Positions 18,929 through 24,881 of a DNA stretch of 28,577 bases are shown here, in pieces. The notes beneath the pieces are model-generated. The model saw only the letters and a list, made by a program, of their open reading frames with translations, did no database searches and had not been told where the DNA came from. The stretch's first letter is position 1; every line of letters starts with the position of its first letter. Source of the DNA: Actinomycetota bacterium (GTDB lineage Bacteria; Actinomycetota; CADDZG01; WHSQ01); contig DASSMG010000233.1 of the NCBI GenBank assembly GCA_035688995.1, forward strand, positions 1 through 28,577, given 5' to 3'. The position numbers and the translations under genes were made by a program.

Positions 18929-20128
18929 TCAGTCGAGGCGCCCGAGGATCTTGCGACTGATGACAACGCGTTGGATCTGTCCCGTTCCTTCGAAGATGTC
19001 GTAGACCTTTATGTCGCGGTACCACTTCTCGACGAGGTGCTCCTTGGAATAGCCCTCGGGGCCCATGATCTGGATCGCACCGATGCACGCGCGCAGGGCG
19101 GCCTGCGGCGCGTAGGCCTTGGCCATCGAGGCCTCTTTCGAGTTCGAGATCTTGTTGTCGGCCATCCACGCTGCCTTCCACACGAGGCCGCGGGCCGCTC
19201 CCAGCTCACGCTTCATCTGCCCGAGCTTCTGCTCGATGGCGTGCTTGCGCGGGAAGTTCGTGGTCATCGGCAACTCCCGCGCGACCCAATCGCGTGCGTA
19301 CTCGTACGCGGCGCGACCGATCCCGAGCCCCATCGCCGCGACCGAAGGCCTCGACGAGTCGAACGTCTTCATCGTCCCCTTGAAACCCGAGCCCTTTGGC
19401 TCGAGCGCGGCCTCACCACCGAGGATGTTGTCGAACGGGATGCGGCAGTCGTCGAGGATCAGCTCCGCGGTTTCGGACGCACGGATGCCGAGTTTGCTCT
19501 CGAGCTTCCCGACCTTGAAGCCGGGTGTTCCCTTCTCGACGACGAAGAACTTCTGACCCTGACGACCGAGGGACTTGTCGACGGTCGCGTTCACCACGAC
19601 GATCTCGGAGCGTGCCCCGTTCGTGCAGAACACCTTGGTGCCGTTGAGGATCCACTCGTCGCCGTCCCGGACCGCGGTCGTCTGAACGTTGGAGACGTCG
19701 GAGCCCGCTTGGGGCTCGGTCACCGCAAGAGCGCCGAAGCGCGGCTCGTCGGATTCGACGTTGAAGATGTCGTCGAGGAACTTCTTCTGTTGTTCCGGAG
19801 TGCCCGATGCCCGGATCGAAGGTGCCGCGAGACCGGGGCCGGGGATGTTGAGGAGAACCGCGGGGTCGCCCCACGCGAGCTCCTCGGATCCGACGACCGC
19901 CATCATCGCGGCGATCGACGCGGGACGCTCGGCGCTGGGCTTGCCTTCCTCGGGAGTGATCGACGCACGGTTGCCGGCGAACTGGCCGAGTTGCTTGATC
20001 GTCTCGACCGGGAGCTTGCCCTTCTCGTCTGCCTCTCGCGCCAGCGGACGCAGTGTGTTCTTGGCGAAGTCGTGGACGTAATCCCGTACGAAGGCGACCC
20101 GCTCGTCCATCTCGAAGTCGATCGGCAT
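18929..20128 (-). CDS. Acyl-CoA dehydrogenase, FadE23-like catalytic subunit
   Basis: TEPQAGSD, NGTKVF, KLGIRAS, FDSSRP, SKEASMAK and DIFEGTGQIQ (catalytic Glu present). Confidence 0.93.
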   Translation of the reverse strand: MPIDFEMDERVAFVRDYVHDFAKNTLRPLAREADEKGKLPVETIKQLGQFAGNRASITPEEGKPSAERPASIAAMMAVVGSEELAWGDPAVLLNIPGPGLAAPSIRASGTPEQQKKFLDDIFNVESDEPRFGALAVTEPQAGSDVSNVQTTAVRDGDEWILNGTKVFCTNGARSEIVVVNATVDKSLGRQGQKFFVVEKGTPGFKVGKLESKLGIRASETAELILDDCRIPFDNILGGEAALEPKGSGFKGTMKTFDSSRPSVAAMGLGIGRAAYEYARDWVARELPMTTNFPRKHAIEQKLGQMKRELGAARGLVWKAAWMADNKISNSKEASMAKAYAPQAALRACIGAIQIMGPEGYSKEHLVEKWYRDIKVYDIFEGTGQIQRVVISRKILGRLD

Positions 20129-21228
20129 CAGCCGTTACCTCCTGCGAAGACGCTGCGCGCTACGGAGTCGTCGCCGCCGAGCTCGGGCGGATCGAAGGCC
20201 GACAGCGTCGCCGCGTCCCGGTACCACTTCTCGACGAGGTGATCCCGGATGTAGCCGTGGCCCCCCAGAACCTGTACGCCGTCGTCGCCGCACCTCACCG
20301 CGGCCGCAAGCGCGTGTCCGTTGGCCTCGGCGATGTCGGCGAAGGTGGCGTCACCGCGATCGATCTTCCACGCCGCTCGCCACACTGCGAGACGCGCCGC
20401 GTCGACCTCGATGGCCATGTCGGCGATCCGGAACGAGATCGCCTGGAAGGCACCGATGGGCTTCCCGAAGGCCTCGCGTTCGGTCGCGTAGGTCGACGCG
20501 TACTCGAGCGAGGCCCGGGCGCACCCGATCGCGAGAGCTCCGGTCAGCAGCTTCGACCACAGGATCGCCTTGGTGAGTTCCGGCCCCGGCGCGAGAGCGT
20601 CACCGGCGCCGTCGAAGCGGACGACGAAGGTGGGGGCCGCTTCGAGCCCCAGCTTGTCCTCCGGCTTGACGACTTCGTAAGACGTCGGCTCGGTTACGAG
20701 AACCGCAGCGAGGTCGTCCCCGCTCCGGCCCACGACCACACCGACGTCGGCGGAATCGGCTCCGAGGACCCCGTACTTCTCGCCGCGGACCTTGTCGCCG
20801 TCGATGGTGGTGTCGAGACTCTCGAGGTCGCCCAGCGCGACCTTCTCGCCGATCGCCACGAACGACTTCGGCGGCGACTCGACGAAGCGCGGGAGCAGGT
20901 CCTTCTTCTGTTGGTCCGACCCGGCGAGCCCGACGACGATCGCGGCGAGTCCCGAACCGAACACCTGGTAGGCGATGCCGGGGTCGCCCCATGCGAGCTC
21001 CTCGACGGCGATGCAATAGGTGACGGCATCGAAGGTGCCCCCTCCGCCGTAGCCCTCCTCCACGGGGGCCGCCACGCCGATCTCGTGGATCTGAGCGGCG
21101 AGGGAGTCGGGGACGTGGCGGGCCTCTTCGGACTCGCGGGCGGCGGGCCGCACGACGTTGTCGGCGAAGTCGTGCAGCGTGTCGCGCAGCGCCTGCTGCT
21201 CTTCTGTCAGTTGAAGATCGAAGCCCAA
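20128..21228 (-). CDS. Acyl-CoA dehydrogenase, FadE24-like partner subunit
   Basis: FDLQLTEEQQ, EELAWGD, REAFGKPIGAFQAI, GVQVLGGHGY..DHLVEKWYRD. No TEP-x-x-GSD or IxEGT motif. Likely start is the TTG at 21228 after GGAGGG (track start 21273). Confidence 0.9.
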   Translation of the reverse strand: MGFDLQLTEEQQALRDTLHDFADNVVRPAARESEEARHVPDSLAAQIHEIGVAAPVEEGYGGGGTFDAVTYCIAVEELAWGDPGIAYQVFGSGLAAIVVGLAGSDQQKKDLLPRFVESPPKSFVAIGEKVALGDLESLDTTIDGDKVRGEKYGVLGADSADVGVVVGRSGDDLAAVLVTEPTSYEVVKPEDKLGLEAAPTFVVRFDGAGDALAPGPELTKAILWSKLLTGALAIGCARASLEYASTYATEREAFGKPIGAFQAISFRIADMAIEVDAARLAVWRAAWKIDRGDATFADIAEANGHALAAAVRCGDDGVQVLGGHGYIRDHLVEKWYRDAATLSAFDPPELGGDDSVARSVFAGGNG

Positions 21229-21257
21229 AACGCCCTCCGAAGGGCGAAGCCGCAAAG

Positions 21258-21273
21258 TTGACCATTCGGTCAA
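21258..21273. promoter_or_regulatory. Palindromic operator TTGACC-N4-GGTCAA
   Basis: Perfect 6+4+6 inverted repeat just downstream of a TATACT -10 (minus strand, 21286-21291) of the fadE operon. Confidence 0.65.
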
Positions 21274-21291: not shown

Positions 21292-21359
21292 GCCAGGCCA
21301 CCGATGGCCCCGTCCCGCCGGTCTGGTCGGGTTCGGCCGGGCTTGGCTTGGGGCTGGGG

Positions 21360-21422
21360 TCGGCTTTCCGTCGGGTCGGCTCGGCTTTCCGTCGGGTCGG
21401 ATCGGCTTTCCGTCGGGTCGGC
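21360..21422. repeat. Tandem repeat, 3 x 21 nt (TCGGCTTTCCGTCGGGTCGG[C/A])
   Basis: Three contiguous copies with one mismatch and no spacers. Confidence 0.95.
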
Positions 21423-21555
21423 TGGGATTTGCGCCGGGTTCCCGATCGGGCTGCTCCGTTCGCGCGATCCCGGCGATCTCTTTTCTGAAAAGTTGCGCGG
21501 ATAGGGCTAGTACCTGTGGTGAAATTGCGGCACGTGAGAAAGGAGGTGGTCCAGA

Positions 21556-21600
21556 CTGTTACCTAGTTTCGACGGACCTCACGAGGTGACCGGCTGCTAG
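21556..21600 (+). CDS. Putative 14-aa peptide (MLPSFDGPHEVTGC), CTG start
   Basis: CTG lies 9 nt after GGAGG, ends at TAG 21598-21600, and has an in-frame stop upstream. No ATG/GTG at SD spacing. Confidence 0.35.
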   Translation: MLPSFDGPHEVTGC

Positions 21601-21747
21601 ACGTGGCCTGAGCACCACTGGATTCTGACCACCTCGCAACAGCAGGCCACGGGCAGAATCCAACCGGTTCACCGGCGTCCCCCGTCCCGGGACTTGGTCC
21701 CCCGGGCGTCATCGACGAAGTACGGGTGGCGAAGCGAACCAGCATCA

Positions 21748-21783
21748 AACCGGCGCGGGTAACCCCCGCGCCGGTTCCTTTTT
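21748..21783 (+). terminator. Intrinsic terminator
   Basis: Perfect 12-bp stem AACCGGCGCGGG/CCCGCGCCGGTT with a 5-nt loop, followed by CCTTTTT. Confidence 0.85.
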
Positions 21784-21806
21784 CCCCTCCCCTCCCCCCG
21801 CCCCTC

Positions 21807-21855
21807 CCGCCGAGTGGTGAATCAGTCGCCAAATATCGGCCCGTGTCACCACTCG
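21807..21855. repeat. Palindromic repeat, left copy
   Basis: CCGCCGAGTGGTGAATCAGTCGCCAAATATCGGCCCGTGTCACCACTCG. 10-bp stem. 43/49 identical to the copy at 22812. Confidence 0.9.
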
Positions 21856-21905
21856 ATGTGGTGGGACTCACTTAGTTGGCGTTCACGCTGGGATTCCATC
21901 GCGTC

Positions 21906-22841
21906 ATGGACGCAGATGAGCGGTGCAGCGAACTAGCTCGCCGTCAATTCGGCTTGATCAATCGGACGCAGGCCCTAGCGGTGGGTCTGTCGCGCCATCA
22001 GATCGCGAAACGAATCATGTCCAAACGGTGGCTCCCCACGTTGCCTGAGGTTTACCTGATCAATGGGTGCCCTTCTTCGTGGGAGCAAAGTGCCATGGCG
22101 GCATGCCTGTGGGCTGGAGATGGAGCAGCCCTTTCCTTCGGAGCTGCTGCTCGGCTGTGGGGATTTGCAGGCTTTGAATCGGCCGGCGTCGAGATCTCCA
22201 CCATTCGATCCAAACGGAATGTGGAGTTGCCTTTCCGCGTTCACCGGATCCGGCGAGAGCTGATCGACAACGTCGATCACATCAAGAACATCCCCGTCAC
22301 CTCTCCAAGATGGACGCTTCTCGATCTTGCGGGGATCAAACACCGGCGAGCCGAGCGCGCTCTTGACCAAGCGCTGGCCCGCGACATCACTTCTTTGGGT
22401 CAGATGTGGCTGCTCTATGAGGAGCAGTGGACGAAGGGAAGACGAGGGATCGCGATCCTTCGGTCTTTCCTCAATGCCAGGACGCCGGGTAACGCACCCG
22501 ACGACTCTGAGCTTGAGCGGCTCCTAGACGAAATCATCAGGGATTTCTCGTTGCCGGAACCAGAGCGTCAGTACTTGATCCAGTTACCCGATCGACTAGT
22601 GAGGATCGACCACTGCTACGCGCATGCCAGACTTCTGATCGAGGTCGACAGCTATGCATGGCACTCGGACCGCGAGACGTTCGAAGCCGACCGCAGGCGC
22701 GACAACGAACTCCAGCTCCTCGGGTGGCGAGTCTTGCGCTTCACCTGGGCACAGCTGCGCTTCGAACCCGAGAAAGTGGCTGCGATGATCCGCGGCCACC
22801 TCGAGAACCGACCGCCGAGTGGTGAGTCAGTCGCCATATAG
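21906..22841 (+). CDS. AbiEi-like N-terminal domain + DUF559 (Vsr-like) endonuclease domain protein
   Basis: N-terminus LARRQFGLINRTQALAVGL...WLPTLPEVY; middle PVTSPRWTLLDLA; C-terminus DSELE..L...PERQY...RID..Y....LIEVDS.AWH...DRRRDNELQLLGWRVLRFTW. Start at ATG 21906 is preferred over TTG 21876. Confidence 0.88.
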   Translation: MDADERCSELARRQFGLINRTQALAVGLSRHQIAKRIMSKRWLPTLPEVYLINGCPSSWEQSAMAACLWAGDGAALSFGAAARLWGFAGFESAGVEISTIRSKRNVELPFRVHRIRRELIDNVDHIKNIPVTSPRWTLLDLAGIKHRRAERALDQALARDITSLGQMWLLYEEQWTKGRRGIAILRSFLNARTPGNAPDDSELERLLDEIIRDFSLPEPERQYLIQLPDRLVRIDHCYAHARLLIEVDSYAWHSDRETFEADRRRDNELQLLGWRVLRFTWAQLRFEPEKVAAMIRGHLENRPPSGESVAI

Positions 22842-22864
22842 CGGCCTGATTCACCACTCGGCGG
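22812..22864. repeat. Palindromic repeat, right copy (possible bidirectional terminator)
   Basis: CCGCCGAGTGGTGA/TCACCACTCGGCGG is a 14-bp perfect stem extended by GTCAG/CTGAT. The nuclease stop codon sits in its loop. Confidence 0.9.
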
Positions 22865-22871
22865 AGGGGGG

Positions 22872-24881
<2,010 letters not shown>

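What the first reader, a model, noticed from the sequence alone, without database searches (positions are those of the whole stretch)
21537..21783. Candidate novel structured RNA with switchable anti-SD pairing, crossing helices and its own terminator
Seen: (i) anti-SD GACCACCTC (21627-35) pairs perfectly with the SD tract GAGGTGGTC (21543-51); (ii) the same strand can instead pair with a second SD-like copy, CGAGGTG 21582-88 with CACCTCG 21630-36; (iii) perfect 9-bp helices CGTGGCCTG/CAGGCCACG (21602-10/21643-51) and TGGATTCTG/CAGAATCCA (21619-27/21654-62) cross each other, so they form a pseudoknot or alternate; (iv) a 3' multibranch domain (GGTTC/GAACC 21666-70/21736-40, CCCGT/ACGGG, inner hairpins); (v) a 12-bp terminator with U-tract. 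Established: very strong SDs held shut by anti-SD helices typify type I toxin mRNAs and translational switches. Inference: an undescribed ~250-nt regulatory RNA, either a dual-function sRNA or an attenuator for the downstream nuclease gene.
Basis: partly seen in the sequence, partly recalled or inferred. Interest (0 to 1): 0.85.

Follow-up and report, generated by a model that had tools for sequence, protein, structure and literature searches.

The report
Ribosome-docking mini-mRNA, Ms_IGR-5 family
The flagged stretch is a real, stand-alone gene for a folded RNA of about 250 bases, but it is this soil actinobacterium's diverged copy of a catalogued small RNA of unknown function (Ms_IGR-5), which can pair with the whole free tail of 16S ribosomal RNA in front of a tiny reading frame.

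Summary
It is single-copy, found in 33 of 36 sampled genera of the same family, has a conserved extended -10 promoter box and its own terminator, and covaries strongly (92% of cells paired against 35-44% in slid controls).

It is not a new family. It aligns end to end with Rfam RF02471 (Ms_IGR-5), but at only 19 bits against a cut-off of 45. Its orthologues in sister genera score 30-48 bits at the same position.

The two crossing helices both covary, so they form a pseudoknot or two alternative states. The anti-SD pairing is conserved only through one-sided changes. The proposed GGUUC/GAACC closing helix fails. Its strand pairs instead with GGUGACCGG, inside a 14-codon reading frame.

That frame is kept open across Actinomycetota: 2, 125 and 200 stop triplets in the three frames, and its stop is always TAG, TAA or TGA. 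No downstream gene is conserved, so it is not an attenuator.

The closest design is the alpha-proteobacterial rre small mRNAs. Function is unknown. This scan has met the same family repeatedly on other DNA.

The parts
21515..21525 (+). Promoter-like box: TGTGG plus hexamer TGAAAT (21520-25). It is the window's version of the family-wide TGTGnTTTCAT extended -10, which lies 6 nt before the invariant A.
   Evidence: Upstream regions of 30 orthologues lined up. The generic sigma-70 scan finds nothing. Assignment as a promoter is inferred.
21532..21783 (+). The whole RNA gene, about 252 nt, from the inferred start (invariant A21532) to the end of the terminator T-run.
   Evidence: Full-length alignment to RF02471 starts at 21532. 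Conservation starts here. Terminator. A 159-nt soil metatranscriptome contig, 97% identical, lies wholly inside (21580-21733).
21537..21552 (+). Extended Shine-Dalgarno AGAAAGGAGGUGGUCC. All 16 nt can pair with the 16S tail GGAUCACCUCCUUUCU (15 Watson-Crick pairs plus one G-U). Nucleotides 21538-47 form a 10-nt bulge between P1 and P2.
   Evidence: Invariant in 29 orthologues. Predicted duplex -27.8 kcal/mol against -7.0 for GGAGG alone. The tail sequence is exact in 24 of 40 family genomes and is the 3' end of SSU rRNA in L172. The window's own MAG has no assembled 16S end.
21533..21583 (+). P1 helix CGUGA/UCACG (21533-37 with 21579-83). It encloses the SD bulge and hairpin P2, GGUCC/GGACC (21548-52 with 21574-78).
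   Evidence: P1 is 100% paired, with compensatory changes in 8 and 12 of 29 sequences. Phylum-wide, pairs 2 and 3 use 3-4 Watson-Crick types at 94% paired. P2 never varies, so it gives no evidence either way.
21556..21600 (+). Mini-ORF of 14 codons plus stop: CUG start (UUG in most relatives), peptide LLPSFDGPHEVTGC as translated (the CUG would initiate with Met), stop UAG 21598-600. It runs through the P2 loop, P2-3', P1-3' and P5-5'.
   Evidence: In 140 distinct 5' regions the stop triplets number 2, 125 and 200 by frame. A canonical start with an open frame occurs in 114, 15 and 0. The triplet three codons after GAG GUG is always a stop: TAG 125, TAA 9, TGA 5. Translation in this genome is not shown.
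21585..21673 (+). P5 long-range helix GGUGACCGG (21585-93) with CCGG-U-UCACC (21664-73). It closes the central domain.
   Evidence: 97.3% paired, 2 pairs with compensatory changes, 0 of 500 shuffles. The same pairing is visible in the RF02471 consensus.
21602..21651 (+). P3 helix CGUGGCCUG/CAGGCCACG (21602-10 with 21643-51). It crosses P4.
   Evidence: 96.1% paired, 3 pairs with changes on both sides (L030, L034, and L033 from an unpublished genome), 0-1 of 500 shuffles. Nested alternatives using the GGCC palindromes show no covariation.
21619..21662 (+). P4 helix UGGAUUCUG/CAGAAUCCA (21619-27 with 21654-62). Its loop holds the anti-SD and the 3' strand of P3.
   Evidence: 98.7% paired over the 8 conserved pairs. 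A-U to G-U changes in 14 sequences, U-A to C-G in 2.
21627..21635 (+). Internal anti-SD GACCACCUC, a near copy of the 16S tail GAUCACCUC. It can pair with 21543-51.
   Evidence: Exact complement, predicted -15.9 kcal/mol, 95.5% pairable in the family, and 9 nt or more at the same position in 21 of 30 copies. It overlaps P2 by 4 nt and P4 by 1 nt, so it competes with them.
21676..21731 (+). 3' three-way domain. P6 is 21676-85 with 21722-31. P7 is CCCGGG/CCCGGG (21686-91 with 21701-06) with the conserved loop UGGUCC (21695-21700). P8 is a variable hairpin (21707-10 with 21714-17).
   Evidence: Compensatory changes in P6 (7 of 9 pairs), P7 (CCGG to CCAG/CUGG) and P8 (all pairs). The loop GGUCC is invariant.
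21748..21783 (+). Intrinsic terminator: 12-bp G+C-rich stem, 5-nt loop, then CC and UUUUU.
   Evidence: Terminator scan. 93.7% paired, with 8 of 12 pairs showing compensatory changes.

Best explanation
SHOWN. Window 21532-21783 (+) is a single-copy, independently terminated gene for a structured RNA. It is this lineage's diverged orthologue of the actinobacterial sRNA Ms_IGR-5 (Rfam RF02471). Its 5' end has a 16-nt stretch that can pair with the entire free 3' tail of 16S rRNA. Ten of those nucleotides sit in a bulge between helices P1 and P2. A 14-codon frame follows, whose start position, openness and stop are conserved across Actinomycetota, while its peptide is not conserved wherever RNA helices covary. 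The frame is made of helix strands (P2-3', P1-3', P5-5'). The body contains two crossing helices, an internal copy of the 16S tail (the anti-SD), and a three-way 3' domain.

INFERRED mechanism. A 30S subunit seeds on the bulged AAAGGAGG and zips along the 16-nt complement, which melts P2. Initiation and the short round of translation then unzip P1 and P5. A ribosome terminating at UAG 21598-600 would also cover the 5' strand of P3. Ribosome loading and the conserved fold therefore exclude each other, and the internal anti-SD competes with the real 16S tail for the SD. On this reading the RNA is a ribosome-docking mini-mRNA, and its conformation, stability or the activity of its 3' domain reports on or depends on ribosome engagement. 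This is what was found experimentally for the unrelated but similarly built rreB mRNA. What it controls downstream is unknown.
For: Identity:
- Full-length RF02471 alignment at 21532-21737, 19 bits, E = 0.04.
- Orthologues 70-83% identical to the window score 30-48.2 bits on the same model at the same position. L021 (48.2) and G005 (47.2) pass the 45-bit cut-off.
- The 5' motif is found in named Mycobacterium, Micromonospora, Cellulomonas, Acidimicrobiia and Thermoleophilia. It is exact in 27 of 27 high-quality genomes of the own family and 102 of 401 of the phylum, usually once per genome.

RNA gene:
- Covariation.
- Conserved promoter box and terminator.
- Downstream genes are convergent and differ between classes.
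- A metatranscriptome contig lies inside the gene.

Mini-ORF and SD:
-.
- Ms_IGR-5 gives ribosome-protected reads in M. abscessus and M. smegmatis (PMC4974804).
- It is detected as a transcript in M. smegmatis, S. lividans and S. avermitilis (PMC10454040, PMC8079986, PMC8780764).

Design precedent: rreB has a 17-nt SD and a 14-aa sORF, co-sediments with 30S, is weakly translated, and is stabilised when its start codon is removed (PMC5711450).
Against: - The window's own score is far below Rfam's cut-off.
- The window's start codon is CUG (7 of 30 family copies), a poor initiator. 24 of 154 copies phylum-wide have CUG and 7 have AUU, AUA or AUC, so 'NUG' could be a structural motif.
- Amino-acid-like conservation (G-P-H/R-E-V) coincides with helix strands, so it cannot be told apart from RNA constraint.
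- No transcript ends, ribosome binding or translation were measured for this organism. The RNA-library evidence is one assembled contig, and DNA carry-over is not excluded.
- The 16S tail is taken from sister genera, not from this MAG.
- The connector between P3-3' and P4-3' is only 2-3 nt, so a simultaneous pseudoknot may be sterically strained.
- Covariation counts come from related sequences. The shuffle control is not a probability.
- In Hahn et al., overexpressing rreB gave no growth phenotype, so a simple ribosome-sponge role is unlikely.
Confidence: 0.75

Rival explanations
1. A purely non-coding regulatory sRNA. The SD-like bulge and the 'frame' are structural or protein/RNA-binding motifs, no ribosome is involved, and the RNA acts in trans by base pairing or by binding a protein.
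For: Every conserved codon overlaps a conserved helix strand. The window has a CUG 'start'. Ms_IGR-5 was first recovered as an Hfq-bound sRNA (Li et al., as cited in PMC4109619). The invariant loop UGGUCC in P7 looks like a seed or contact site.
Against: Stop triplets are excluded from one frame only (2 against 125 and 200). The 'stop' changes only among TAG, TAA and TGA in 139 distinct sequences. An in-frame ATG, GTG or TTG is present in 114 of 140. Ribosome-protected reads are reported for Ms_IGR-5 (PMC4974804). A 16-nt match to the 16S tail is hard to explain without the ribosome.
Confidence: 0.12
2. A conventional micro-protein gene. The 14-residue peptide is the functional product, and the RNA structure only tunes its expression or stability.
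For: The open frame, start and stop are conserved. Within the family the C-terminal half GP(H/R)EV(T/S/A)GC is nearly constant.
Against: The N-terminal half is free to vary within the family (LPSFD, SDSSC, NDRSD, SEYRC and others). Across the phylum the residue before E-V is R, C, L, S, H, P or T, tracking P1 covariation rather than chemistry. About 180 nt of covarying structure lies 3' of the stop, far more than a peptide gene needs. The synthesised RreB and RreR peptides were unstructured and without phenotype (PMC5711450).
Confidence: 0.08
3. One reading: a cis-acting attenuator or leader that controls read-through into the downstream DUF559-like nuclease gene (21876-22841).
Against: The gene is bracketed by 62-nt direct repeats and 25-nt inverted arms, and is absent from this position in relatives, where convergent ligA follows the RNA after about 300 nt in 17 of 30 loci. 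In other classes the downstream genes differ and are convergent. In the source metagenome the left repeat has about three times the flanking depth, so it is a multi-copy element.
Confidence: 0.03
4. A type I toxin-antitoxin-like locus with a tightly repressed toxic peptide.
For: Very strong SD with a competing anti-SD helix.
Against: The peptide is short and hydrophilic, with no membrane segment. The locus is one copy per genome, syntenic, and present in 27 of 27 high-quality family genomes, unlike patchy, multi-copy TA loci. No antisense partner was seen, though none was searched for systematically.
Confidence: 0.02

Closest known systems
Ms_IGR-5 (Rfam RF02471), actinobacterial sRNA first reported from Mycobacterium smegmatis (IGR-5 = ncMSMEG15794c)
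   Same: End-to-end alignment to the model. Shared 5' block AC-NNNN-G-RAAGGAGGUGGUCC / hairpin / GGAC-NNNN-GAGGUG. Shared landmarks GCUAG (the stop), GAAUCC, the CACC strand of P5, a hairpin with a (G)GUCC loop, and a closing helix. Single copy, stand-alone, with convergent neighbours. Orthologues of the window reach the family cut-off.
   Different: The window's copy scores 19 bits (cut-off 45). This lineage has a 14-codon rather than a 12-codon frame, a compact central domain with crossing helices P3/P4 and an internal anti-SD, and a canonical U-tailed terminator. Synteny also differs: acyl-CoA dehydrogenase and ligA here, against a GCV_T-like and a THAP4-like gene in mycobacteria and relatives. 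In the alignment, the Rfam consensus structure line does not mark P1, P5 or the crossing helices. I found no paper that describes the mini-ORF or 16S-tail complement of Ms_IGR-5.
rre small mRNAs of alpha-proteobacteria (rreB, rreR; Hahn et al., RNA Biol 2017, PMC5711450) and Rfam CC2171 (RF01867)
   Same: The design is the same: a stand-alone transcript of about 165-250 nt, 16-17 nt complementary to the 16S 3' end, only the 5' part of that stretch single-stranded and the rest in a hairpin, a 14-18-codon frame with a non-AUG start, and unknown function. There is a weak CC2171 hit on the SD/ORF part (15.6 bits).
   Different: No demonstrable sequence homology (15.6 bits against a cut-off of 75, E = 0.63). 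Different phylum. The actinobacterial RNA has a much larger covarying 3' body. 30S binding and weak translation are shown for rreB only.
SD-sequestering translational switches (RNA thermometers, riboswitch expression platforms, type I toxin mRNAs)
   Same: An internal anti-SD can mask the SD, and competing helices exist.
   Different: No downstream gene is regulated, no ligand-binding aptamer was recognised, and the only frame is 14 codons long and built into the fold.

Membership tests
Rfam RF02471 Ms_IGR-5 | Covariance-model score at or above the curated gathering cut-off (45 bits) | tested here: inconclusive
   The window scores 19 bits, E = 0.04, full length 1-184, which is below the cut-off. 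Orthologues 70-83% identical and alignable over their whole length score 30-48.2 bits at the same position, two of them above the cut-off. Membership therefore rests on transitive homology, not on the window's own score.
Rfam RF02471 Ms_IGR-5 | Conserved 5' block: AAGGAGGUGGUCC, hairpin, GGAC, 4-5 nt complementary to the 5' flank, GAGGUG | tested here: met
   Present at 21539-21588. The same block is present in RF02471 hits above the cut-off (L036-L047) and in named Actinomycetota. The P1 flank covaries phylum-wide.
Rfam RF02471 Ms_IGR-5 | Shared downstream landmarks in the same order (GCUAG, GAAUCC, the strand complementary to GGUGNNNNN, a hairpin with a GUCC loop inside a closing helix) | tested here: met
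   Alignment to the model consensus. Family alignment A1.
Rfam RF02471 Ms_IGR-5 | Stand-alone, usually single-copy locus in Actinomycetota | tested here: met
   One match in the window's genome and in most relatives. Neighbours are convergent.
Rfam RF02471 Ms_IGR-5 | Expressed as a discrete small RNA | not testable with these tools
   The only evidence is one 159-nt contig from a soil metatranscriptome library lying inside the gene. Published expression data concern other genera (PMC10454040, PMC8079986, PMC8780764).
rre-type small mRNAs (rreB/rreR; Rfam CC2171) | At least 16 nt complementary to the 16S rRNA 3' end directly upstream of a small ORF | tested here: met
   16 of 16 pairable (one G-U), -27.8 kcal/mol. 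The tail sequence comes from same-family genomes.
rre-type small mRNAs (rreB/rreR; Rfam CC2171) | Conserved sORF of about 14-18 codons with a weak (non-AUG) start | tested here: met
   14 codons, CUG here and UUG in most relatives. Frame statistics.
rre-type small mRNAs (rreB/rreR; Rfam CC2171) | Sequence or structure homology to rreB/rreR/CC2171 | tested here: not met
   CC2171 scores 15.6 bits against a cut-off of 75, E = 0.63, covering the SD region only. So this is a resemblance of design, not membership.
rre-type small mRNAs (rreB/rreR; Rfam CC2171) | Tight binding to 30S subunits that depends on the 5' extension of the SD | not testable with these tools
   Needs sucrose-gradient or toeprint assays.
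cis-acting leader / attenuator | A conserved co-oriented downstream gene | tested here: not met
   The downstream genes are convergent ligA (own family), a THAP4-like gene (Actinomycetes) and DUF4446 (Thermoleophilia). The DUF559 gene here is an insertion.
type I toxin mRNA | Hydrophobic membrane-active peptide; patchy, often multi-copy distribution | tested here: not met
   Peptide LLPSFDGPHEVTGC. Single copy and present in all sampled high-quality genomes of the family.

The most novel reading that the evidence does not exclude
Ms_IGR-5-type RNAs, including this copy, could be a phylum-wide ribosome-engagement sensor. The RNA would carry both a full complement of the 16S tail and an internal mimic of that tail. 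Free 30S subunits would compete with the mimic, and each docking or translation event would refold the crossing-helix core (P3 in the idle state, P4 in the loaded state). This would switch the activity or lifetime of the conserved 3' domain. That would be a housekeeping read-out of translational capacity, comparable in rank to 6S/Ms1 for RNA polymerase and convergent with the alpha-proteobacterial rre RNAs.
Probability: 0.25. Interest if true: 0.8.

Novelty: new member of a known kind. Interest (0 to 1): 0.45.

Why it matters
The call of an undescribed RNA family does not hold, which is useful in itself. The element escapes Rfam's gathering threshold (19 bits against 45) but is an orthologue of Ms_IGR-5. 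The Rfam model therefore under-detects the family in deep actinobacterial lineages, and its consensus structure line, as printed in the alignment, lacks the helices best supported here (P1, P5, P3/P4).

The family deserves attention. It is single-copy across a large part of the phylum, including mycobacteria and streptomycetes. It has the longest possible match to the ribosome's mRNA-docking tail and a mini-frame whose translation, not its peptide, appears to be selected. It has no known function. A tractable orthologue exists in M. smegmatis, so the docking-and-refolding model can be tested directly.

Tried and rejected
- Rfam at gathering thresholds over the whole window: no hit. The relation appeared only in E-value mode.
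- 16S tail in the window's own MAG: the only near match (C168) lies in a coding region and is not rRNA. The tail was therefore taken from sister genera.
- Naming the lineage: none of the 120 named loci from the genome-contig scan is close to the window beyond the 5' block, and the protein-atlas look-up of LigA gave no useful taxa.
- The phylum is inferred. Genomes the tool labels 'same phylum' give RF02471 hits of 165-186 bits, and named Actinomycetota carry the motif.
- Read laying: only assembled contigs were available, so there are no transcript ends and no strand information.
- Nested alternatives to the crossing helices (middle GGCC with 3' GGCC; 5' GUGGCC with middle GGCCAC) are about 90% pairable because GGCC is a palindrome, but show no covariation.
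By eye, the flanking nucleotides do not covary across classes (sequences). Left open.
- Literature search for the motif as a sequence string returned only unrelated papers.
- I did not build my own covariance model for a reciprocal search. The Rfam hits on orthologues already answered the question.

Full report
**1. What is there**

The finding lies in a 600-nt gap between an acyl-CoA dehydrogenase gene (20128-21273, - strand) and a DUF559-like ORF (21876-22841, +). NAD-dependent DNA ligase ligA (22872-24869, -) follows. The genome is a 2.27-Mb, 85%-complete MAG with 65.5% G+C. Its DNA is best held by a soil metagenome run.

The terminator is a 12-bp stem at 21748-76, followed by CC and UUUUU. 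The + strand folds at z = -3.76 against shuffles. The - strand folds at z = -3.60, so energy alone does not decide the strand.

**2. It is a conserved gene**

A DNA search of 60 relatives found one copy in 33 of 36 genomes of the same family, each from a different genus, at 70-83% identity. It found almost nothing in the sister families. The exact 5' motif is present in 27 of 27 high-quality family genomes.

A MAFFT alignment of 29 orthologues (A1) shows invariant blocks separated by variable loops. Upstream, the orthologues share TGTGnTTTCAT, an extended -10 type box, 6 nt before an invariant A. In the window this is TGTGG + TGAAAT at 21515-25, with A21532 as the likely start. The strand, start and end are thus fixed by conservation.

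Four rows of A1 come from genomes marked unpublished: L008 = G018, L020 = G011, L031 = G035, L033 = G004. L033 supplies one of the three compensatory events in P3 and one of the two in P4. The other events come from L030, L034 and L029. The tallies also include unpublished genomes (G173, G006, G433).

**3. Structure**

I wrote a structure from the alignment and counted it on the structure-blind alignment.
- 92.1% of 1827 cells pair, against 35-44% when the 3' partners are slid by 1-3 columns.
- 30 of 68 pairs show changes on both sides, against 15-17 in the slid controls.
- No shuffle of 500 reaches any of the five measures.

Helix by helix:
- P1 (21533-37 with 21579-83): 100% paired. G-C changes to A-U in 8 sequences, and U-A to C-G in 12.
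- P2 (GGUCC/GGACC): never varies.
- P5 (21585-93 with 21664-73): 97%, 0 of 500 shuffles.
- P3 (21602-10 with 21643-51): 96%, three pairs with double changes, 0-1 of 500.
- P4 (21619-27 with 21654-62): 99%, 5 of 500.
- P6, P7, P8 and the terminator all show compensatory changes.

Both are supported, and the nested alternatives are not. The connector between the 3' strands of P3 and P4 is only 2-3 nt, so I cannot say whether they co-exist as a pseudoknot or are two alternative states.

That strand belongs to P5.

The SD / anti-SD helix is 95.5% pairable with only wobble-compatible one-sided changes. It is kept at the same position in 21 of 30 copies. It overlaps P2 and P4, so it is a competitor, not part of the same state. 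The second 'SD copy' GAGGUG is mostly the 5' strand of P5.

**4. It is Ms_IGR-5**

Rfam at gathering thresholds is silent. In E-value mode the region aligns end to end (model positions 1-184) with RF02471 at 19 bits, E = 0.04.

The same model hits the orthologous position in ten of twenty sister loci at 30-48.2 bits, with L021 above the 45-bit cut-off. In a phylum sample it hits G005 at 47.2, G036 at 40.5 and G018 at 38.5 bits. Other families score up to 186 bits.

An exact-pattern scan of named genomes finds the 5' block in several groups:
- Actinomycetes: Mycobacterium, Micromonospora, Pseudonocardia, Cellulomonas, Kineococcus and Nocardiopsis.
- Other classes: Acidimicrobiia, Thermoleophilia and Nitriliruptoraceae.
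- Outside the phylum: one acidobacterial MAG.

P1 covaries across this whole set. Its two middle pairs use C-G, A-U, G-C and U-A at 94% paired.

The window's copy is therefore a diverged family member.

**5. The mini-ORF and the ribosome-binding site**

In 153 of 154 loci a frame defined by GAG GUG ends exactly three codons later. The one exception runs off the end of its locus. The frame begins at an NUG 2-6 nt after GGUCC in most loci: TTG 76, ATG 37, CTG 24, GTG 10.

Over 140 distinct sequences:
- Stop triplets between GGUCC and GAGGUG number 2, 125 and 200 in the three frames.
- A canonical start with an open frame occurs in 114, 15 and 0.
- The terminal triplet is TAG 125, TAA 9, TGA 5, and never a sense codon.

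The peptide is not conserved where helices covary. The residue before E-V is R, C, L, S, H, P or T. The N-terminal half varies freely even within the family. What is selected is an open, startable, stoppable frame, that is, ribosome passage.

In the window the frame is 21556-21600 with a CUG start. A one-T deletion relative to the UUG of most relatives produces this, and 7 of 30 family copies share it.

The SD AGAAAGGAGGUGGUCC (21537-52) pairs with all 16 nt of GGAUCACCUCCUUUCU at a predicted -27.8 kcal/mol. That tail is exact in 24 of 40 family genomes and is the 3' end of SSU rRNA in L172. The window's own MAG lacks it.

**6. Not a leader**

The neighbours differ by class, and the downstream gene is convergent in each:
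- Own family: acyl-CoA dehydrogenase upstream, ligA downstream.
- Mycobacteria and relatives: a GCV_T-like gene upstream, a THAP4-like gene downstream.
- Thermoleophilia: gyrA upstream, DUF4446 downstream.

The DUF559 ORF next to the RNA here is bracketed by 62-nt direct repeats and 25-nt inverted arms. In the source metagenome the left repeat has about three times the depth of its flanks. It is an insertion, not a regulated target.

**7. Mechanism**

Shown: the frame consists of helix strands (P2-3', P1-3', P5-5'); ten nucleotides of the SD lie in a bulge; and an internal near-copy of the 16S tail can mask the SD (-15.9 kcal/mol).

Inferred: 30S seeds on the bulge, zips over 16 nt, and translation unzips P1, P2 and P5. 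A terminating ribosome would also cover the 5' strand of P3. Ribosome loading and the conserved fold are then mutually exclusive.

This is the design described for rreB in Bradyrhizobium: a 17-nt SD, a 14-aa sORF, 30S co-sedimentation, weak translation, and stabilisation when the start codon is removed (PMC5711450). Ms_IGR-5 is reported to give ribosome-protected reads in two mycobacteria (PMC4974804). What the RNA controls is unknown.

**8. Expression**

One 159-nt contig from a soil metatranscriptome library, 97% identical, lies wholly inside the gene (21580-21733). This is compatible with expression but is not proof.

**9. Earlier notes of this scan**

The same family has been met many times on other DNA (28 notes in at least 26 genomes), and earlier agents reached the same filing. 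The pointer to the rre paper came from those notes. I read the paper myself. All three are confirmed here.

**10. Verdict**

This is a real structured RNA gene. It is wrong on novelty and on the attenuator and toxin readings. The element is a new, sub-threshold member of a known but functionally unexplained family.

Noticed in passing
window 21801-22873: The DUF559-like ORF (21876-22841, +) is bracketed by 62-nt direct repeats (21807-68 / 22812-73, 81% identical) and 25-nt inverted arms (21801-25 / 22846-70). In the source soil metagenome the left repeat has contig depth 22-24 against 7.4 for the flanks, and several contigs break there. Relatives have ligA directly after the RNA. It looks like a multi-copy palindrome-associated insertion.
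   Followed up: partly
window 21352-21435: A 21-nt tandem repeat of 3-4 units (GGGTCGGCTCGGCTTTCCGTC-like) sits upstream of the RNA promoter. The metagenome contig of the source sample lacks 18 nt at 21360, so copy number varies in the population.
   Followed up: no
window about 21488-21500, and the same position in L007-L035: A conserved AAGT(G/T)GCGCG-like box lies about 21 nt upstream of the extended -10 hexamer in most family orthologues. That is too far for a normal -35 element. It may be a regulator site.
   Followed up: no
L025 (G019:C28), L010, L019: The RNA tolerates large insertions at two sites: about 70 nt between P3-5' and P4-5' in L025, and 20-30 nt hairpins between P4-5' and P3-3' in L010 and L019. 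This marks those segments as peripheral loops.
   Followed up: no
window 21530-21592: Weak hit to Rfam CC2171 (RF01867), the model that earlier notes of this scan link to the rre small mRNAs of alpha-proteobacteria: 15.6 bits, E = 0.63, covering only the SD and the start of the frame.
   Followed up: partly
L092 (Candidatus Polarisedimenticolia MAG); G079 (C17 and C126): The 5' motif with a 15-codon frame also occurs in an acidobacterial MAG. At least one actinobacterial genome carries two copies.
   Followed up: no
window 21695-21700 and 21547-21552: The invariant P7 loop UGGUCC is identical to the UGGUCC at the 3' end of the SD. Both could pair with GGACC (21574-78) inside the frame, which gives a possible third competitor in the switch. 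By eye, the flanks do not covary.
   Followed up: partly
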